Below are positions 12,461 through 59,236 of a DNA stretch of 64,000 nucleotides, piece by piece (position 1 is the stretch's first letter; each line of letters opens with the position of its first letter). Origin of the DNA: Minisyncoccia bacterium (GTDB lineage Bacteria > Patescibacteriota > Minisyncoccia > Phycocordibacterales > CSBR16-119). The stretch lies in NCBI GenBank assembly GCA_047619465.1, contig JBLHJW010000001.1:8911-72910 (forward strand), written 5' to 3'. The notes beneath the pieces were generated by a model. The model saw nothing but the letters and a program-made list of their open reading frames with translations, ran no database searches and was not told the DNA's origin. Both the position numbers and the translations under genes were made by a program.

Positions 12461-12482
12461 GTTTACTTTTCAATTCATTGTC

Positions 12483-12598
12483 CTGGCGATGACCTACTTT
12501 CCCCATTAAGAGAGTATCATCAGCTCACGAGGGCTTAACTTCCGTATTCGGAATGAGAACGGGTGTGGCCCCTCCGATAAATCACCAGGACAATAAAT
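12483..12598 (-). rRNA. rrf: 5S ribosomal RNA
   Basis: The reverse complement reads GTCCTGGTGATTTATCGGAGGGGCCACACCCGTTCTCATTCCGAATACGGAAGTTAAGCCCTCGTGAGCTGATGATACTCTCTTAATGGGGAAAGTAGGTCATCGCCAGGAC, the canonical 5S helices I-V. Confidence 0.8.
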
Positions 12599-13164
12599 TC
12601 AAAAATTTTGAACCACCAAGGAATATCTCCCTGGTGGATTTTTGGTGAGCAAAACACAAAACCTACAGATAGCACGTAGCTCTCTACTGGGCCTTCTATA
12701 CCCCTAAAGCGATAACTCAACCAAAGCTAAAACTATGAATCACCTTTTAAGAGAAAAGATTTTCATACAATCAACTTATAACGGTTAAGAACAATCCAGA
12801 GCTAAATCAACATTACTGTTGTCGTTATTCGCAAATCCTCTATGTTTCCACTTCTGAATCTGCAATGTTCTAAATTTCACGCCCTCTCGGTTACCGTGTC
12901 TCCTCCGAGACCCCTCATAAACCAACTTCTGGTTTGTGTATTTGCTCACCACCCAAGCAGCTGTCATAAAAACAACTGACGGGTTAATGTCTTTTAAATC
13001 TTAACTGGTATTTTTATAATATATGGAGAATTTCTCCATATATTACCTTCGCTCGAGTATTATGAAAATAAATTTTCAAATACTTCTCGCTTGTTAATAT
13101 AAGCATTTTTACCATCTAAAAGCAGAGCTCTTGTAACTCGCTACCTTACGCTTTCCTAATAGGA

Positions 13165-16648
<3,484 letters not shown>

Positions 16649-16872
16649 TTCCTATTAGGAAAGCATAAAGTTACGAGTTAATTTCTTAACTTGATTTTGC
16701 TCACTACCACTAGCGAGACTTCATTCTACAATTGCTCTTAAACTTATTCCTGCCATGGAATAAGTTTATTCTTTTAGATGGTAAAAATACTTATATTTAC
16801 ATATTTTACCCCGAATTGTTTCTCTCAAAACAATTCTTAGTTAGATTTTAAAAGACGTCTATTATCAAAATG

Positions 16873-54236: not shown

Positions 54237-54980
54237 TTATAATTCAAATTCTAAATAAAGGGCTGCATGATCTGAGACCTCATCTGGCAACACTTTAAAA
54301 TCTTTTACTTCTACGCCTTTGGTAAAAATGTAATCAGCAAAACGTATCTCCTTTTCATAATACGAAGTACGCGTATCCTTTATCCCATATTCTTCCACAA
54401 GATCTATCATTCCTTCTTTAATAAGAGAGAGACTTTCTGTTTCAGGCTTTAAATTAAAATCTCCAACCAAAACTTTAGGCATGTCAAATCTACCTAAAAA
54501 ATTTCTAATTTTATTTGATTGATTAATCCTATCCTCAGAATCATCTTTTCCTTTTCCATTCCATAAACCATGAACATTCACTACGATAAATTTTTCTCCA
54601 TCTTTATTCAAGATCGCATATTGTAAATTTCTTGGATGATGGCCTCCGTCACCATCTTTATATGAACCCCTTTCTCTATGAATAAAAATATCTCCTTCTT
54701 CTTCAACTATGAAATCTTTTTTAACCCAAAGAGCAATGCCGTACCAGTCCTCAATACAAGGCCTAAAGAAGCCCTTGTGGTTATTTAAGATGTTATCTAT
54801 ATCGTTAAATAACTCTAATGAACAGTTTTCTTTTCCGTCTTCAGCTTGGGTTTTGTCCGAAGCATTAGAATGAACCTCTTGAAAGCAGAAAATATCTATT
54901 TCTTCTGACCTGTCATCAAAAAACCTAAAGAGTGGGTCCCTAACTCTCCCTCCCCAGACATTTAAAGTGATTAATTTCAT
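54237..54980 (-). CDS. endonuclease/exonuclease/phosphatase (EEP) family protein
   Basis: 247 aa. MKLITLNVWGG…FCFQEV…; catalytic D/N/H residues are at EEP-typical positions. Confidence 0.6.
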   Translation of the reverse strand: MKLITLNVWGGRVRDPLFRFFDDRSEEIDIFCFQEVHSNASDKTQAEDGKENCSLELFNDIDNILNNHKGFFRPCIEDWYGIALWVKKDFIVEEEGDIFIHRERGSYKDGDGGHHPRNLQYAILNKDGEKFIVVNVHGLWNGKGKDDSEDRINQSNKIRNFLGRFDMPKVLVGDFNLKPETESLSLIKEGMIDLVEEYGIKDTRTSYYEKEIRFADYIFTKGVEVKDFKVLPDEVSDHAALYLEFEL

Positions 54981-54982
54981 TA

Positions 54983-57900
54983 TTATATTTTATCAATTTT
55001 AATCTCTCCACCAAAGTCCACCTCTACGACACCTGCTGTGTTTTGGAATTCATTTGAAAAACTCTCATAAATGTCTTTATTATTTTCTGGGAGGGTGAGT
55101 CTTATTCTATCTTCTGGATTTAAGCCGGCTTCTTTTCTCATCTTCTGAACCTCTCGAAGAAGATCTCTGGCCTTCCCTTCTATTTCTAGTTCTGGAGTCA
55201 GCACAGTATCGATAGCCAGATCGGGACCGATCACAACTTCTTTTACATTTAGTTCGTCAGCAATCAACTCCAGGTATTCGCCATCTAGCATTTCTGTGAT
55301 TGTTAAAGACGCCAAAGGCTGTCGTACATTTATATTTGCTTTGGAACGAAGCTCAAGTGCCTCTGAAATAACAGCTCGAGTTTTTTGCATTGACGCAAGA
55401 GTCTTGGCTTCTTTTTTCTTTCCAAACATCTTTTGGAAAAATCCTCCTGTCGTTTTTATCTCTGCCCAGTTTTCTAGGTGAACTGACTCCAGCTTTCCTC
55501 CAACACGTCCATACATGTCTTCTGCGAAGAACGGAGTAAAAGGTGCCATCAGAATAGATAGTCTCTCAAGGACAGACCTTGTTGTAGCTAGGGCGAACTT
55601 TCGATCTGCTTCGTCTTGTCCTTTGAACCTATCTCTACTTCTTCGAATATACCACTGTGACAAATCACCGATAAGCTCGCGAATAGCTCGAGTTGGTTCA
55701 AGTAGCTGGTAAGCGTCAAGTTTTTTTGTTACAAGCTCTTCTAACTCGTCTGTCTTTTCTAGGATCCATCGATCTAGAACATTCGGTGAGGTCTTTGGAT
55801 CTACTGACAAATCTACTGAGCCAGAGTACATTTCATAGAACTTCACCACGTTATCCAAAAGGCCAAACACCTTTCTCTGTGTTTCTGTGATTGTCTTCTC
55901 GTCGAAGTTCTTCGACTCTCCTGGTCCATTTACTGAGTACATCCAGAAACGAAGTGAATCTACTCCGAACTTCGTAACGGCATCCCAGGGGTTTACCGTG
56001 TTCCCTTTTGATTTAGACATCTTTTGTCCTTTCTCGTCATTTACGAGACCTAGACTAATTACGTTTTTATAGACCTTTCCCTTACCTACAAGGTTTCCTA
56101 TTGCATGTAGTGTATAGAACCAACCACGTGTTTGATCCATTCCCTCCGAGATGAAGTCAGCCGGTACTCCTACTTTGTCCACATAATCTTTGTTTTCAAA
56201 TGGATAGTGCTCTTGAGCAAATGGCATAGATCCTGAATCAAACCATACATCCATCACTTCTTTTACTCTTTTGAAGTCTTTTCCATCTTTCTCTAAAACT
56301 ACTTCGTCGATAAACGGTTTGTGGAGATCTAGCTTGTGATTACTATCATGAGGTATTGGTACAAAGTCTAGCTCTCGAACCTCTGCATTATCATAAGCTT
56401 CAAAATCATCGTCAAAGCTACAATCACAAGAATCTGGAGTGTGCCCTGTCACACTCACATGAAGCAACCAAAGAGGAGTCCCATGAGAGACAAAAAGTAT
56501 ATTTTTGTCTCTGTACTTTTCTTCTAATTCATACAATACAGGAGCCACACGATTCATCACGTCTTGTGAAGATTCTCCTCCACCTATTTTCACGTGGAAT
56601 TGTTCTGACCCCTTTTCTCTTATAAAAGAGTGGTACTCTTCGTGATTTTTGCCTTCAAATTCTCCGACCCCTACCTCAACAAGTCTTTTGTCAAAAACAA
56701 GTTGGTCGTCAGAGAGTTTCAATCCTGCTTTCACAAGTTCGGCTGTCATTTTTGTTCTCATAAATGGCGAGGCGACTATTAGATCAATGTTTTTTGATTT
56801 CAGTTTTTCTACAGCTTGCCTTACCTGGGCTTCTCCCTTTTCGGTGACTGGATCTATGTTTTCTAAAACAGTACTTAGAACTTTTTTGACATTGCTCTCT
56901 GACTGACCATGACGCATGGCGAAGTATTTATTCCCAGATTTCTTTACGTTCTTTTTTATATCCTCTATAGAACCTGCAACCAACATCTCTCCGTCCTCTG
57001 CCTGCCAGATAGGAAGTGGTGTTCCCCAGTATCGCTCTCGAGAAATTGCCCAGTCTTTCAAGTCTTTTAGCCACTCACCAAAACGTCCATCTTTGATGTG
57101 TGATGGCTCCCAATTTATAGTTTGGTTCTCTGCAATCATCTTTGACTTCACTTCTTGCATGTTTATATACCAAGAGTCTCGTGCGTAGTAGATAAGAGGA
57201 GTCTTACATCGCCAACAGTGAGGGTAGCTGTGCTCGTACTTTTCCTTGCTAAAATATGTTTTGTTGTCTTGTAGATGCTTAATCACATCAATATCCATAG
57301 TCGGCTTACCATCAGTCATCTCTTTTACAGATCTACCTGAAAAGTCACCCATTCCATCCACAAAAGTTCCGTCTTCTTTTACAACATGCATCTTTGGAAG
57401 GCTAACCTTGTTTCCAAGTTCGAAGTCATCCTGTCCGTACATCACAGCGGTATGTACAATCCCTGTTCCGTCTGTAGTTGTCACGAAGTCAGCCGCATAT
57501 ACTTTGTATGCGTTTTCTATATTCTTAATTTCTTCTTTTTCTGCAAGGTCTTTGAAGTATGGGAATAATGGCTTGTATTCTTTGCCAACTAGTTCAGATC
57601 CCTTTATTTCTTCAGTAATTTCATAAATTTCTCCGTTGTAAAAATACCTCTTAGAATCACTTGTGGGATTAACTTTTTGATCTTCTTTAGCAAAGATGCT
57701 TTTAGCAAGAATAATAACACTTTCCGTATCTAGGTCTGATGGAGTTTTGTGTTCCTTATCATTAGGTATTGTAGATGTTGAAGCAACAGCTATTGTGGAT
57801 GTTGAAGCAACTTTTTTTGCCTTTACATAATCTATCTTTTCTCCAACAGCTAGAGCAACATTTCCAGGAAGAGTCCATGGGGTTGTAGTCCAGGCCAGGA

Positions 57901-58579
57901 GATATGTTCCTTTTTCATCTACTAGCTCAAACTTTGCAGTAATAGAAATATCTTTTACATCTTCATACCCTTGGGCAAGCTCGTGAGATGAGAGTGTGGT
58001 TCCACAACGGGGACACCACGGAACGACCTTGTAGTCTTTGTAAATTAGATTCTGATCAGCTACCTTTTTTATTACCCACCAAACAGACTCCATGTAGTGA
58101 TTGTCATAAGTAATATACGGATCATCTAAATCCACCCAGAAACCAATTCTTCGTGTGAAGTCCTCCCACTCTGATTTATATTCCCAAACAGACTCCTTAC
58201 ACTTTTGGTTAAAGGCTTCAATTCCATAGTCTTCGATCTCAAGTTTTGATTTCAGTCCGAGTTGCTTCTCCACCTGAAGCTCCACAGGAAGCCCGTGAGT
58301 ATCCCATCCCCCCTTTCGGCGAACATTGTATCCCTGCATAGTTTTATATCTTGGAATTGCATCCTTGAAAGCTCGCGCTGCCAAGTGATGAATACCTGGT
58401 CGCCCATTTGCAGTCGGCGGTCCTTCAAAGAAAACAAACTCACCCTTTGGCGAATCTTTCTTTGTAGTCTTGGCGAAAATTTCTTTCTCATTCCATTCGT
58501 TCAAAATCTCCCCTTCGCGCTCAGCGTAGGGACTCTGTTTCTCTTCTTTTTCTTGGTATTTTTTGTATTCGTTGCTCAT
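54983..58579 (-). CDS. ileS: isoleucyl-tRNA synthetase with an embedded histidine-phosphatase (PGAM-like) domain
   Basis: PTANGRPGIHHL (HIGH-type), a CP1 editing domain with …TTTPWTLPGN…, CxxC knuckles, and KMSKSKGNTVNP (KMSKS). Between WAISRERYWGTPLP and DVWFDSG the protein carries ~250 aa instead of the usual ~60, including …YFAMRHGQSESN… and …ILFVSHGTPLWLL…. Start is set at MSNEYKK (58579). Confidence 0.85.
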   Translation of the reverse strand: MSNEYKKYQEKEEKQSPYAEREGEILNEWNEKEIFAKTTKKDSPKGEFVFFEGPPTANGRPGIHHLAARAFKDAIPRYKTMQGYNVRRKGGWDTHGLPVELQVEKQLGLKSKLEIEDYGIEAFNQKCKESVWEYKSEWEDFTRRIGFWVDLDDPYITYDNHYMESVWWVIKKVADQNLIYKDYKVVPWCPRCGTTLSSHELAQGYEDVKDISITAKFELVDEKGTYLLAWTTTPWTLPGNVALAVGEKIDYVKAKKVASTSTIAVASTSTIPNDKEHKTPSDLDTESVIILAKSIFAKEDQKVNPTSDSKRYFYNGEIYEITEEIKGSELVGKEYKPLFPYFKDLAEKEEIKNIENAYKVYAADFVTTTDGTGIVHTAVMYGQDDFELGNKVSLPKMHVVKEDGTFVDGMGDFSGRSVKEMTDGKPTMDIDVIKHLQDNKTYFSKEKYEHSYPHCWRCKTPLIYYARDSWYINMQEVKSKMIAENQTINWEPSHIKDGRFGEWLKDLKDWAISRERYWGTPLPIWQAEDGEMLVAGSIEDIKKNVKKSGNKYFAMRHGQSESNVKKVLSTVLENIDPVTEKGEAQVRQAVEKLKSKNIDLIVASPFMRTKMTAELVKAGLKLSDDQLVFDKRLVEVGVGEFEGKNHEEYHSFIREKGSEQFHVKIGGGESSQDVMNRVAPVLYELEEKYRDKNILFVSHGTPLWLLHVSVTGHTPDSCDCSFDDDFEAYDNAEVRELDFVPIPHDSNHKLDLHKPFIDEVVLEKDGKDFKRVKEVMDVWFDSGSMPFAQEHYPFENKDYVDKVGVPADFISEGMDQTRGWFYTLHAIGNLVGKGKVYKNVISLGLVNDEKGQKMSKSKGNTVNPWDAVTKFGVDSLRFWMYSVNGPGESKNFDEKTITETQRKVFGLLDNVVKFYEMYSGSVDLSVDPKTSPNVLDRWILEKTDELEELVTKKLDAYQLLEPTRAIRELIGDLSQWYIRRSRDRFKGQDEADRKFALATTRSVLERLSILMAPFTPFFAEDMYGRVGGKLESVHLENWAEIKTTGGFFQKMFGKKKEAKTLASMQKTRAVISEALELRSKANINVRQPLASLTITEMLDGEYLELIADELNVKEVVIGPDLAIDTVLTPELEIEGKARDLLREVQKMRKEAGLNPEDRIRLTLPENNKDIYESFSNEFQNTAGVVEVDFGGEIKIDKI

Positions 58580-58580
58580 A

Positions 58581-58810
58581 TATATATAAATTAAAAAACT
58601 CGTCCTAGAACTACGACCGAAGTCGCAATCCAAGGACGAGCTTCTCTCGTGGTACCACCTTGTTTTACCAAGCATATAGCTTGGCCTCATTACAGCTATT
58701 TCGGGCTTACCCGTTGGGTTCTATTTTCCTATTTCCTCCGCATGGGCAGGCATATTAGAATTTCTTCCCAAAGCTCCAGAATGATTAAGTCCATCAACGC
58801 TCGCATGTAC
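58581..58810 (-). promoter_or_regulatory. candidate T-box riboswitch leader of ileS, with an extended -10 promoter
   Basis: On the minus strand: TGTTATAAT (extended -10), a ~210-nt leader, the T-box-like sequence AACAAGGTGGTACCACGAG (consensus AANNNGGGTGGNACCGCG), then the terminator CTCGTCCT…AGGACGAG + TTTTTT. The terminator's 5' half can pair with the T-box 3' half to form the antiterminator. An ATC (Ile) codon sits in a candidate specifier context (GACTTAATCATTC). Confidence 0.45.
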
Positions 58811-58897: not shown

Positions 58898-59236
58898 ATG
58901 AGTGAAAAAGAAAAAAATGGTTTTAAAATAATGAAGATTGAAACAGACAAGGGAAACTATTTTGTGTTTCAAGTGCAGTACCTGAAGCCGTTCGGCCAAG
59001 GATTCTATACAAACCACAAAGGAAAGTTTTTATCTGAGAAAGCATCTGCTGAAGAAGAGATTCTCTGGATGGAAGACGTATGGGACGAGTTTCCTATGAG
59101 AGAAGAAGCTGATGAAAACATTTTCGGTCGCCTATTCAAAAAGGCCGACAACGAGCAAGAAATTGTTCCTCCAGGGCCAGCAATTCATAATCCTTTTTCC
59201 GGTCTCGGTGTCCTAAAAGAACAAATGGAAGACTGA
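58898..59236 (+). CDS. hypothetical protein
   Basis: 112 aa with its own promoter and terminator. No recognisable family. Confidence 0.4.
   Translation: MSEKEKNGFKIMKIETDKGNYFVFQVQYLKPFGQGFYTNHKGKFLSEKASAEEEILWMEDVWDEFPMREEADENIFGRLFKKADNEQEIVPPGPAIHNPFSGLGVLKEQMED

What the first reader, a model, noticed from the sequence alone, without database searches (positions are those of the whole stretch)
56254..57004. Isoleucyl-tRNA synthetase carrying an inserted, complete histidine-phosphatase (PGAM-branch) domain
In the continuous 1199-aa IleS ORF, the segment between the conserved W-x-ISR-x-R-x-WG-x-P block and the DVWFDSG block is ~250 aa. In E. coli-type IleS it is ~60 aa. The extra sequence aligns motif-by-motif with cofactor-dependent phosphoglycerate-mutase/CobC/SixA-type histidine phosphatases:
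- YFAMRHGQSESN matches the RHGE/Q..N catalytic His loop.
- VTEKGEAQV and DLIVASPFMRTKMTA also align.
- ILFVSHGTPLWLL matches the second catalytic His.

The aaRS motifs on both sides are intact (HIGH-type at the N-terminus, KMSKS downstream), so this is an in-frame domain insertion, not a fusion artefact. A phosphatase module inside a class I aaRS is, to my knowledge, unusual. It could act on an aminoacyl-adenylate or nucleotide by-product, or serve a regulatory or moonlighting role.
Basis: partly seen in the sequence, partly recalled or inferred. Interest (0 to 1): 0.6.

Follow-up and report, generated by a model that had tools for sequence, protein, structure and literature searches.

The report
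Phosphatase domain nested inside isoleucyl-tRNA synthetase
The housekeeping isoleucyl-tRNA synthetase of this tiny-genome (Patescibacteria/CPR) bacterium really does carry a complete, apparently active histidine-phosphatase domain spliced into a surface hairpin of its catalytic body, an old arrangement shared by related species in at least 80 genomes that I could not find described in the literature.

Summary
The ileS gene (window 54983-58579, minus strand, 1198 aa) holds a clean 199-aa insertion (56351-56947). Pfam calls it His_Phos_1 (E=1.3e-30).

- **Fold:** the AlphaFold model of the insert is confident (pLDDT 90). Its closest solved relatives are small-molecule phosphomonoesterases (PspA, GpgP, PhoE), not phosphoglycerate mutases.
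- **Insertion site:** the loop of the zinc-knuckle hairpin of the connective peptide, about 30 residues before DVWFDSG.
- **Active site:** R-H...R...E...H is invariant in 121 close relatives and kept in 88 of 90 representatives of 50%-identity clusters.
- **Spread:** all 120 best database hits and all 80 retained species genomes carry it (Paceibacteria/Minisyncoccia, Nomurabacteria and similar). It is not a chimera.
- **Losses:** insert-free orthologues with the same ArgS-IleS-RecO gene order nest inside the insert-bearing clade (100/100 NJ bootstraps). This implies one old gain and several clean losses, so aminoacylation does not need the insert.
- **Host enzyme:** a T-box-regulated type-2 IleRS. 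Its "HIGH" motif is actually the swapped GIHH form.

Best reading: a bifunctional enzyme whose phosphatase is an autonomous guest module with an unknown small-molecule substrate. Coupling to tRNA charging is not excluded. No paper describing this was found. I rate it a new variant of a known kind, of moderate interest.

The parts
58629..58806 (-). T-box leader upstream of ileS, with a shortened Stem I; AAUCA in the Stem I loop is a possible AUC (Ile) specifier
   Evidence: Rfam RF00230 scores 56 bits, E=1.9e-11, below the gathering score of 93. The GGUGGUACCACG T-box sequence is visible. Similar sub-threshold T-boxes lie directly upstream of ileS in 4 of 6 related loci.
58593..58646 (-). Intrinsic terminator hairpin plus U6 tract of the T-box leader; it ends 13 nt before the start codon
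   Evidence: The RNA fold shows a long perfect hairpin followed by UUUUUU; z-score -3.65 for the whole leader.
54983..58579 (-). ileS coding sequence (1198 aa plus stop): a type-2 isoleucyl-tRNA synthetase with a nested phosphatase domain
   Evidence: TIGR00392 ileS scores 855 bits against a cut-off of 621. Best solved relatives are IleRS2 structures 8c8w and 1ile. The full-length AF2 model has pLDDT 88.3 and pTM 0.82.
58385..58396 (-). G63-I-H-H66: swapped (GXHH) version of the class I HIGH signature
   Evidence: Translation. G63, H65 and H66 are nearly invariant in the family. The motif is linked to mupirocin hyper-resistance in IleRS2 (PMC10485003).
56948..58579 (-). N-terminal IleRS part: first half of the catalytic fold, the CP1 editing domain (TTTPWT at 57872-57889), and the connective peptide up to the left arm of the hairpin
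   Evidence: Pfam tRNA-synt_1 covers residues 26-552. The alignment to 8c8w covers residues 10-477.
56351..56947 (-). The inserted block, residues 546-744 (199 aa): linker KKSGNK, the histidine-phosphatase domain, and the return linker ...FVPIP
   Evidence: It is the gap in the alignment to IleRS2 8c8w. The Pfam His_Phos_1 match lies at 56429-56920. The AF2 model of the insert has pLDDT 90.2 and pTM 0.89. Foldseek gives TM about 0.75 to PspA, GpgP and PhoE.
56909..56914 (-). R557-H558 of the RHG motif (H558 is the predicted phospho-accepting nucleophile)
   Evidence: Invariant in 121 of 121 close relatives. H is present in 91 of 91 and R in 90 of 91 sequences (the query plus 90 representatives of 50%-identity clusters).
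56756..56758 (-). R609, the second phosphate-binding arginine (SPxxRTxET motif)
   Evidence: Present in 121 of 121 and 89 of 91.
56675..56677 (-). E636, the predicted proton donor (RLxE...GxFxG motif)
   Evidence: E in 118 and D in 3 of 121. E in 88 and D in 3 of 91.
56483..56485 (-). H700, the second catalytic histidine (THG motif)
   Evidence: Present in 121 of 121 and 90 of 91.
54983..56350 (-). C-terminal IleRS part: right arm of the hairpin (DLHKPFID), DVWFDSG (56231-56251), KMSKS (56009-56023), the anticodon-binding domain and the type-2 C-terminal domains
   Evidence: Pfam Anticodon_1 and DUF5915. The alignment to 8c8w starts at chain residue 480. Translation check.

Best explanation
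**What it is (shown).** This is the cell's housekeeping isoleucyl-tRNA synthetase. It is T-box-regulated and editing-competent by motifs, type 2, with the GXHH signature. A complete branch-1 histidine-phosphatase domain of about 200 aa was inserted once, long ago, into the loop of the zinc-knuckle hairpin of the connective peptide. That site lies about 8 residues before the invariant DLHRPxID motif and about 30 residues before the second half of the Rossmann fold.

**Is the guest domain active (inferred).** Most likely yes. H558 would take the phosphate from a phosphomonoester, R557, R609 and H700 would hold it, and E636 would protonate the leaving group. In sequence and predicted fold the domain resembles broad or small-molecule phosphatases (PhoE, PspA, GpgP) rather than mutases.

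**How it relates to IleRS (inferred).** I infer that the phosphatase works as an autonomous module on a small phosphorylated metabolite. IleRS serves mainly as a permissive, constitutively needed host. That ties the phosphatase's dosage to ileS expression and therefore to tRNA-Ile charging through the T-box. Aminoacylation does not need the insert, because several sub-lineages have deleted it cleanly.

**Status of each step.** Shown: the architecture, the fold class, active-site conservation, phyletic spread and the losses. Inferred: catalytic activity, the substrate class and independence from aminoacylation.
For: **Domain identity and fold**
- Pfam His_Phos_1, E=1.3e-30.
- The AF2 model of the insert has pLDDT 90.2.
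- Top Foldseek hits are 6s2q, PspA (4ij5/4ij6), GpgP Rv2419c, the riboflavin-pathway histidine phosphatase 9mmh, and PhoE, at TM about 0.75 and rmsd mostly 2.3-3.1 A. Most dPGMs align at rmsd 4.6-7 A or worse.
- There is no ERHYG or HGNSLR dPGM signature (sequence).

**Insertion site**
- It is a clean 199-aa gap against IleRS2 8c8w.
- Insert-free relatives show CxxC...CxxC around the same loop.

**Active site under selection**
- R-H-R-E-H is invariant in 121 relatives and kept in 88 of 90 cluster representatives.
- The insert as a whole evolves faster than the IleRS catalytic parts: mean pairwise identity 0.45 against 0.67-0.73.
- Insert length is tightly held at 192-216 aa.

**Not a chimera**
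- All 120 best hits and all 80 retained species-level genome loci carry it.
- ArgS-IleS-RecO-membrane protein gene order is conserved.

**Dispensable for IleRS**
- Insert-free orthologues P0123, P0136, P0127, P0149, P0152 and P0177 fall inside the insert-bearing clade in 100 of 100 NJ bootstraps.
- Two of those checked share the gene order around ileS: P0123 has ArgS-IleS-RecO and P0271 (the P0127 cluster) has IleS-RecO-membrane protein.
- Some keep linker remnants, such as LPKNE..DLHRP.

**Probably not an RNA binder**
- The insert is acidic: pI 5.1, family median 5.4.

**Host is a true IleRS**
- TIGR00392 scores above its cut-off.
- The TTTPWT and GTG.VH editing motifs and KMSKS are invariant.
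- A T-box leader precedes the gene.
Against: - No enzymatic data exist and the substrate is unknown.
- A nested insertion, rather than an end fusion, has been kept across a whole class.
- Both linkers are conserved and predicted with confidence, and the full-length model has pTM 0.82. The site is immediately next to invariant catalytic-core motifs. All this would also fit a mechanistic link to aminoacylation.
- I could not obtain model coordinates, so the distance and orientation between the phosphatase pocket and the synthetic or editing sites were not measured.
- No stand-alone phosphatase gene was found within 10 kb of ileS in three insert-free relatives. Functional replacement in those genomes is therefore not shown.
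- The phylogeny is neighbour-joining only.
Confidence: 0.55

Rival explanations
1. **Coupled function.** The phosphatase takes part in aminoacylation or regulates it. It might hydrolyse a phosphomonoester linked to the reaction (AMP, another nucleotide, or a tRNA terminal phosphate). It might dephosphorylate the synthetase itself. Or it might act as a phosphometabolite sensor that tunes the neighbouring catalytic core allosterically.
For: - The insertion lies within the connective peptide, about 30 residues from strand beta-4, directly before the invariant DLHRPxID motif.
- The linkers are conserved and confidently modelled, and the full-length model has pTM 0.82.
- Expression is tied to tRNA-Ile charging by a T-box.
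- Two relatives add yet another phosphohydrolase domain (HD, with a weak HD_3 match) at the C-terminus. This hints that this IleRS may act as a platform for phosphate or nucleotide chemistry.
Against: - AMP, PPi and tRNA ends are common to all aaRSs, so nothing explains why only IleRS would carry the domain.
- No Ile-specific phosphomonoester is known (general knowledge).
- Insert-free orthologues nest inside the clade, so charging works without the insert.
- The insert is acidic, which is a poor fit for binding the tRNA backbone.
- No residues of the IleRS core are specifically conserved only in insert-bearing proteins.
Confidence: 0.25
2. **Specific known enzyme.** The insert is a cofactor-dependent phosphoglycerate mutase, an alpha-ribazole phosphatase (CobC) or a SixA-type phosphohistidine phosphatase. 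It would supply that defined housekeeping activity.
For: - The best NCBIfam matches are dPGM_arch (80 bits), cobC (76 bits) and RNase H/acid phosphatase PRK07238 (75 bits).
- These families share the same catalytic core.
Against: - All of these scores lie far below the curated cut-offs of 225, 163 and 326 bits.
- The dPGM substrate-binding signatures (ERHYG after the Glu, HGN after the second His) are absent.
- dPGM structures superpose worse than PspA, GpgP or PhoE.
- No SixA model matched.
Confidence: 0.1
3. **Non-catalytic structural module.** The domain is a folded plug that replaced the zinc knuckle as a stabiliser of the hairpin, or a docking surface, and has no enzymatic role.
For: - 139 of 199 insert-bearing sequences, including this one, have lost both CxxC pairs of the knuckle.
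- The insert's overall sequence is less conserved than the IleRS core.
Against: - The five catalytic residues are invariant or nearly so across sequences that are otherwise only about 45% identical in this region. That pattern is typical of selection on catalysis or at least on ligand binding.
- 53 insert-bearing sequences still keep the zinc knuckle, so the insert did not simply replace it.
- Many insert-free IleRS2 proteins also lack the cysteines.
Confidence: 0.05
4. **Artefact.** The architecture results from an assembly chimera, a frameshift fusion, or an intein-like element that is removed from the mature protein.
For: None found. The return linker contains an H-N/D dipeptide that superficially recalls the end of an intein.
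Against: - The same in-frame architecture appears in all 120 best protein hits and all 80 retained species genomes, from many independent assemblies.
- Composition is similar to the flanks.
- There is no Hint or intein Pfam hit, and the fold is a histidine phosphatase.
Confidence: 0.01

Closest known systems
Type-2 isoleucyl-tRNA synthetase (IleRS2) with the swapped GXHH signature (Brkic et al. 2023, PMC10485003; structures 8c8w, 8c8v, 1ile)
   Same: - It is the best sequence and fold match over the whole IleRS body: phmmer E=3.5e-222, and Foldseek TM 0.79-0.88 normalised to the target.
- It has the type-2 C-terminal domains (DUF5915).
- It has the GXHH motif.
- The editing motifs are intact.
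   Different: - No solved or described IleRS2 carries a catalytic domain in the zinc-knuckle hairpin of the connective peptide.
- This protein has lost the four knuckle cysteines.
- It also has an extra disordered stretch of about 50 aa in the editing domain.
Small histidine phosphatases of branch 1: PhoE (1h2e), phosphoserine phosphatase PspA/iPSP1 (4ij5), glucosyl-3-phosphoglycerate phosphatase Rv2419c (4pz9), riboflavin-pathway HFP (9mmh)
   Same: - Same fold: TM about 0.75, rmsd mostly 2.3-3.1 A, 22-25% identity.
- Same R-H...R...E...H catalytic set.
- Same short 'cap' region of the L.E...G.[WF].G type.
   Different: - Those are free-standing proteins of about 200 aa. This domain is nested in another enzyme.
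- It reaches none of the curated family cut-offs.
- Its substrate is unknown.
Rv2228c-type bifunctional RNase H / CobC-like acid phosphatase (NCBIfam PRK07238)
   Same: A branch-1 histidine-phosphatase domain is fused to an enzyme of nucleic-acid metabolism. It is one of the better NCBIfam matches to the insert, at 75 bits.
   Different: That case is an end-to-end fusion, not a nested insertion. The partner enzyme is different. The score is far below the cut-off of 326 bits.
NCBIfam NF040702 'ileS_w_GNAT' (IleRS containing an N-acetyltransferase domain)
   Same: It is a precedent for an IleRS carrying a second catalytic domain. I know of it only from the model's name.
   Different: The guest domain is a GNAT, and its position in the protein was not examined. 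The score of 319 bits, against a cut-off of 1999, reflects only the shared IleRS body.
Idiosyncratic insertions of class Ia synthetases (CP1 editing domain, the INS subdomain of IleRS2, the leucine-specific domain of LeuRS)
   Same: These are lineage-specific modules nested in surface loops of the class Ia scaffold. Natural gain and loss is documented for INS in bioRxiv 10.64898/2026.02.03.703510.
   Different: Those modules serve tRNA binding, editing or aminoacylation. This one belongs to an unrelated phosphohydrolase superfamily with its own active site.

Membership tests
Isoleucyl-tRNA synthetase, type 2 (IleRS2) | Scores above the curated cut-off of the IleRS equivalog model | tested here: met
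   TIGR00392 scores 855 bits against a cut-off of 621.4. ValRS, LeuRS and MetRS models score below their cut-offs.
Isoleucyl-tRNA synthetase, type 2 (IleRS2) | Class I signatures: HXGH (or the IleRS2-specific GXHH) and KMSKS | tested here: met
   GIHH lies at residues 63-66 and KMSKS at 854-858. Both are conserved in 93 relatives. GXHH is documented as an IleRS2-only variant (PMC10485003).
Isoleucyl-tRNA synthetase, type 2 (IleRS2) | CP1 editing domain with the Thr-rich and GTG.VH motifs | tested here: met
   T232-T-T-P-W-T237, G372, G374, V376, H377 and D386 are invariant, and T373 nearly so, in the family alignment.
Isoleucyl-tRNA synthetase, type 2 (IleRS2) | Type-2 C-terminal organisation (no C-terminal zinc-binding domain; best matches are IleRS2 rather than IleRS1) | tested here: met
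   A Pfam DUF5915 C-terminal domain is present. MupA and MupB models score about 720 bits. IleRS2 structures give E=3.5e-222 to 1e-211, against 1.6e-85 for IleRS1.
Isoleucyl-tRNA synthetase, type 2 (IleRS2) | Charges tRNA-Ile with isoleucine | not testable with these tools
   Support is indirect only: a T-box leader with a possible AUC specifier, and conserved housekeeping gene order.
Histidine phosphatase superfamily, branch 1 (Pfam PF00300) | Scores above Pfam's gathering threshold over most of the model | tested here: met
   107 bits against 21.7; profile positions 3-165 of 194.
Histidine phosphatase superfamily, branch 1 (Pfam PF00300) | Catalytic core: RHG His nucleophile, two Arg, a second His, and an acidic proton donor | tested here: met
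   R557, H558, R609, E636 and H700 are present here. They are invariant in 121 relatives and kept in 88 of 90 cluster representatives.
Histidine phosphatase superfamily, branch 1 (Pfam PF00300) | Alpha/beta/alpha sandwich fold of the family | tested here: met
   The AF2 model has pLDDT 90.2. Foldseek gives probability 1.00 and TM 0.73-0.76 to PspA, GpgP and PhoE. This is a predicted structure, not a solved one.
Histidine phosphatase superfamily, branch 1 (Pfam PF00300) | Phosphomonoesterase or mutase activity through a phospho-histidine intermediate | not testable with these tools
   Needs an enzyme assay.
Cofactor-dependent phosphoglycerate mutase (dPGM) | Reaches a dPGM equivalog cut-off and carries the dPGM substrate-binding signatures (E-R-H-Y-G; H-G-N) | tested here: not met
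   dPGM_arch scores 80.4 against 225, GpmB 49 against 261, and PRK01295 43 against 316. The sequence after E636 is VGVGEF and after H700 is GTP.
Alpha-ribazole phosphatase CobC | Reaches the TIGR03162 or PRK15004 cut-off | tested here: not met
   76.3 bits against 162.9, and 48.7 against 250.
Phosphoserine phosphatase PspA (iPSP1) | Reaches the NF045917 cut-off | tested here: not met
   61.3 bits against 350, although PspA is among the best fold matches.
T-box riboswitch (Rfam RF00230), for the leader of the gene | Reaches the Rfam gathering score; has the T-box sequence, alternative terminator and antiterminator, and a specifier codon | tested here: inconclusive
   56 bits against a gathering score of 93, but E=1.9e-11. 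The T-box sequence and a strong terminator are present, and Stem I is truncated. It recurs upstream of ileS in 4 of 6 relatives. The specifier assignment (AUC) is by eye only.

The most novel reading that the evidence does not exclude
The nested phosphatase is mechanistically wired into tRNA-Ile charging. One version is a phosphometabolite-sensing or hydrolysing switch that sits next to the catalytic core and sets IleRS activity according to the cell's phosphate or energy state. Another is a built-in eraser of inhibitory phosphorylation on the synthetase. Either would make this the first aminoacyl-tRNA synthetase with an intrinsic phosphohydrolase control module.
Probability: 0.15. Interest if true: 0.8.

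Novelty: new variant of a known kind. Interest (0 to 1): 0.55.

Why it matters
- **A second active site in a bacterial synthetase.** aaRSs are textbook examples of modular evolution, but their extra domains almost always serve tRNA binding or editing, or signalling in eukaryotes. Here a bacterial housekeeping class I synthetase has carried a second, unrelated and apparently active catalytic centre. The domain sits inside its catalytic body and has persisted across a major class of the Candidate Phyla Radiation.
- **A ready comparative system.** Nature has supplied the controls: close orthologues that deleted the insert, and members that kept or lost the zinc knuckle around it. The question "what does the guest domain do for the host enzyme?" can therefore be tested directly with a few recombinant proteins.
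- **Annotation and metabolic reconstruction.** NCBI names many of these proteins only "class I tRNA ligase family protein". Metabolic reconstructions of these minimal genomes will also miss a phosphatase hidden inside ileS.
- **If coupled to charging.** It would be a new way of regulating translation.

Tried and rejected
- **Genome scan with the insert alignment.** The scan was redone with the single window sequence.
- **Word-indexed protein search with the insert alone.** It returned only two free-standing proteins: P0291 (184 aa, 36% identity) and P0292, which its source names glucosyl-3-phosphoglycerate phosphatase. The origin of the insert and its nearest stand-alone family remain unresolved.
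- **AlphaFold-database fold search.** The library was unavailable.
- **IleRS-core residues conserved only in insert-bearing proteins.** This was a search for an interface or coupling signature. Nothing passed strict thresholds. The weak signals (for example positions 880, 897, 908 and 917) look like lineage effects.
- **Conserved functional partner gene.** The EEP-family gene immediately downstream occurs in only 1 of 80 related loci. The conserved neighbours (ArgS, RecO, a DUF11 membrane protein) say nothing about the phosphatase.
- **Stand-alone phosphatase near ileS in insert-free relatives.** None lies within 10 kb. Whole genomes could not be searched.
- **Tandem repeat at DNA level for the VASTSTIAVASTSTI duplication.** None was reported.
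- **Literature (papers read).** Seven searches found no paper describing an IleRS, or any aaRS, with a histidine-phosphatase domain.
- **Intein idea.** Rejected: there is no Hint domain and the fold is a phosphatase.
- **RNA-binding role.** Made unlikely by the acidic pI.
- **Geometry of the two active sites.** Not measured, because model coordinates are not exposed by the tools.
Full report
**Numbering.** Residue numbers follow the 1199-codon translation of window:54983-58582(-) that the tools used. Its first residue is the Tyr codon directly upstream of the ATG at 58579-58577, so subtract 1 for Met-1 numbering.

Yes. One continuous ORF on the minus strand runs 54983-58690. NCBIfam identifies it as ileS (TIGR00392, 855 bits against a cut-off of 621) and closest to the type-2, MupA/MupB-like kind. 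Pfam splits tRNA-synt_1 into two stretches. Between them it places His_Phos_1 (PF00300) at residues 555-718, with E=1.3e-30 and 107 bits against a gathering score of 21.7.

Against the best solved relative, P. megaterium IleRS2 (8c8w, E=3.5e-222), query residue 545 pairs with chain residue 477 and query 745 with chain 480. The extra material is therefore a clean 199-aa block, residues 546-744, window 56351-56947. In 57 insert-free IleRS2 relatives the R515-Q790 stretch is 75-114 aa, against 276 aa here. GC content does not change markedly across the insert.

**2. What is the inserted domain?**

Modelled alone with 24 homologues, it gives a confident AlphaFold model (pLDDT 90.2, pTM 0.89) with the alternating strand-helix pattern of the family.

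Foldseek against the PDB returns the following at TM about 0.75, mostly at rmsd 2.3-3.1 A:
- a mycobacterial hydrolase (6s2q);
- Hydrogenobacter phosphoserine phosphatase PspA (4ij5/4ij6);
- M. tuberculosis glucosyl-3-phosphoglycerate phosphatase Rv2419c;
- a riboflavin-pathway histidine phosphatase (9mmh);
- PhoE.

Phosphoglycerate mutases come lower and superpose worse. No curated NCBIfam equivalog is reached: dPGM_arch 80 against 225, CobC 76 against 163, PspA 61 against 350. The dPGM-specific ERHYG and HGN signatures are absent. It is thus a branch-1 histidine phosphatase of the small "PhoE-like phosphatase" type, with no assignable substrate.

**3. Is it likely active?**

In 121 sequences (this protein plus the 120 best database hits, 51-63% identical overall), R557, H558, S605, R609, R678 and H700 are invariant. 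E636 is E in 118 and D in 3.

In the more divergent set of 50%-identity cluster representatives that carry the insert, 88 of 90 keep R-H-R-E/D-H. The exceptions are a truncated insert (P0190) and an R-to-W change (P0200).

The rest of the insert evolves faster than the synthetase's catalytic parts: mean pairwise identity 0.45 against 0.67-0.73. Its length stays at 192-216 aa. Selection focused on the catalytic set is what one expects of a working enzyme, or at least a working phosphate-binding site.

**4. Where exactly is it inserted?**

The site is the loop of a hairpin in the last part of the connective peptide. Brkic et al. 2023 include this region in CP2, because their catalytic core resumes at PmIleRS2 residue 513. 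In the CP core/CP1/CP2/CP3 scheme it is probably CP3, which I did not verify.

Insert-free relatives show ...PIW-x-C-x-x-C...SG-x-K...DLHRP-x-ID...C-x-x-C...EV-x-DVWFDSG, which is a four-cysteine zinc knuckle. The insert sits between the SGxK turn and DLHRP.

The window protein has lost all four cysteines (IWQAEDGE... and ...LEKDGKDF). Across 199 insert-bearing sequences, 139 lack both CxxC pairs and 53 keep both. The insertion therefore predates the loss of the knuckle and did not simply replace it.

The full-length model is confident (pLDDT 88.3, pTM 0.82), including the N-terminal linker. It matches IleRS2 structures (TM 0.79-0.88 normalised to the target). No solved structure combines both folds. 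Coordinates are not exposed, so I could not measure how the two active sites face each other.

**5. How widespread is it, and is it an artefact?**

All 120 best hits in the 5.8-billion-protein collection carry PF00133 plus PF00300. Named members come from Pacebacteria/Paceibacterota, Nomurabacteria, Campbellbacteria and Minisyncoccia.

A scan of one genome per species found 398 related stretches. All 80 that were kept contain the insert at 47-56% identity, from many independent projects. The gene order ArgS-IleS-(variable)-RecO-DUF11 membrane protein is conserved: 56, 71 and 70 of 80 loci for ArgS, RecO and the membrane protein. A chimera is excluded.

**6. Gain and loss.**

Among the 150 best 50%-identity cluster representatives, 90 carry the insert and the rest do not.

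On a neighbour-joining tree of the IleRS core with the insert columns removed, insert-free proteins are scattered among insert-bearing ones. In 100 bootstrap replicates, P0123, P0136, P0127, P0149, P0152 and P0177 fall inside the clade spanned by insert-bearing sequences every time. P0123 falls inside the small clade of the query, P0121 and P0122 in 99 of 100. More distant insert-free IleRS2 proteins fall outside in 92 of 100.

Further support for secondary loss:
- P0123 has the same ArgS-IleS-RecO neighbourhood.
- The Komeilibacteria/Parcubacteria GWA2_43_17 protein (the P0127 cluster) keeps IleS-RecO-membrane protein.
- P0123's closest insert-bearing relatives (P0121, P0140) still have the zinc knuckle, so a simple deletion explains P0123.
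- P0149 and P0152 keep an LP-x-(N/D)-E...(D/N)LHRP remnant of the return linker.

The most economical history is one ancient insertion and several clean deletions. The caveat is that this rests on NJ only, with no likelihood analysis.

**7. The host gene.**

The gene is preceded by a T-box leader (58629-58806; RF00230 at 56 bits, below the gathering score of 93, E=1.9e-11). The leader has a shortened Stem I and a strong terminator hairpin plus U6 that ends 13 nt before the ATG at 58579. Similar leaders precede ileS in 4 of 6 relatives tested. This fixes the start codon: the 1235-aa ORF extension runs through the leader. It also shows that the whole bifunctional protein is expressed in response to tRNA charging.

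The class I signature is G63-I-H-H66. This is the swapped GXHH motif that Brkic et al. linked experimentally to mupirocin hyper-resistance in IleRS2, and it is nearly invariant in this family. The editing motifs and KMSKS are invariant. This is a genuine housekeeping IleRS.

**8. How does it most likely work?**

*Shown:* the architecture, the fold class, the conserved catalytic set, the spread and the losses.

*Inferred:* H558 attacks a phosphomonoester, R557, R609 and H700 bind the phosphate, and E636 protonates the leaving group. This is the standard mechanism of the superfamily.

I favour an autonomous guest enzyme acting on a small metabolite (confidence 0.55), for these reasons:
- the nearest folds are metabolite phosphatases;
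- no phosphomonoester is specific to the isoleucine system, while AMP, PPi and tRNA ends are common to all synthetases;
- the insert is acidic, with pI 5.1 and a family median of 5.4, which does not fit tRNA binding;
- the synthetase works without it in nested lineages;
- no IleRS-core residues are specifically conserved with the insert.

The main rival is functional coupling to charging (0.25). It draws on the nested position next to invariant core motifs, the ordered conserved linkers, the T-box coupling, and the extra C-terminal HD phosphohydrolase domain in two relatives.

The remaining rivals are less likely: a specific dPGM, CobC or SixA identity (0.10), a purely structural role (0.05) and an artefact (0.01).

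**9. Novelty.**

The architecture sits in public databases with automatic Pfam labels. NCBI often names these proteins only "class I tRNA ligase family protein". Seven full-text searches and two recent IleRS evolution and structure papers gave no description of it.

It is a new variant of a known kind: a known enzyme hosting a known fold in an undescribed nested arrangement. It is moderately surprising to a specialist and easy to test, thanks to the natural insert-free orthologues.

Noticed in passing
window 58593-58806 (-): A T-box leader with a truncated Stem I and a strong terminator lies directly upstream of ileS. It scores below the Rfam gathering score (56 against 93 bits, E=1.9e-11). 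AAUCA in the Stem I loop may hold an AUC (Ile) specifier. Similar leaders lie upstream of ileS in 4 of 6 related Paceibacteria loci (L001, L003, L006, L015).
   Followed up: partly
window 58385-58396 (-): The class I 'HIGH' signature is G-I-H-H, the swapped GXHH motif shown experimentally to give mupirocin hyper-resistance in IleRS2 (PMC10485003). It is nearly invariant across this whole family.
   Followed up: partly
window 13154-16658 (-), especially 13458-13843: The 23S rRNA gene spans 3505 nt against a 2925-nt model. A group I intron-like match (RF00028, 45.2 bits against a gathering score of 50, E=2e-9) lies inside it. 5S rRNA is at 12481-12589. No tRNA genes were found anywhere in the 64 kb.
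   Followed up: partly
window ~57629-57784 (-), residues 267-318 of IleS: There is an extra segment of about 50 aa in the CP1 editing domain relative to P. megaterium IleRS2. Its N-terminal part is predicted disordered (pLDDT below 50 at residues 267-279). It contains a duplicated peptide, VASTSTI-AVASTSTI. Tandem Repeats Finder reported nothing at the DNA level.
   Followed up: partly
window 54237-54980 (-): An endonuclease/exonuclease/phosphatase-family gene (Pfam PF03372) ends 3 nt downstream of the ileS stop codon. A homologue is present in only 1 of 80 related loci (L017), so it looks like a recent arrival rather than a partner of the phosphatase insert.
   Followed up: yes
proteins P0072 (1306 aa) and P0091 (1334 aa), relatives: Two insert-bearing IleRS relatives carry a further HD phosphohydrolase domain at the extreme C-terminus (PF01966, with a weak PF13023 HD_3 match in P0091). 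That gives three catalytic folds in one polypeptide.
   Followed up: partly
window ~56999-57010 and ~56279-56290 (-), residues 525-528 and 765-768 region: The four cysteines of the connective-peptide zinc knuckle (CxxC...CxxC in insert-free relatives and in 53 of 199 insert-bearing ones) are all replaced here. 139 of 199 insert-bearing sequences lack both pairs.
   Followed up: yes
L083 4311-4859 and L084 4102-4698: In the insert-free Komeilibacteria/Parcubacteria GWA2_43_17 relative, a Y1 (IS200-like) transposase gene sits between ileS and recO.
   Followed up: no
window 58898-59236 (+): A 112-aa ORF lies on the opposite strand between ileS and argS. It has no Pfam match and no homologue in the 80 related loci.
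   Followed up: partly
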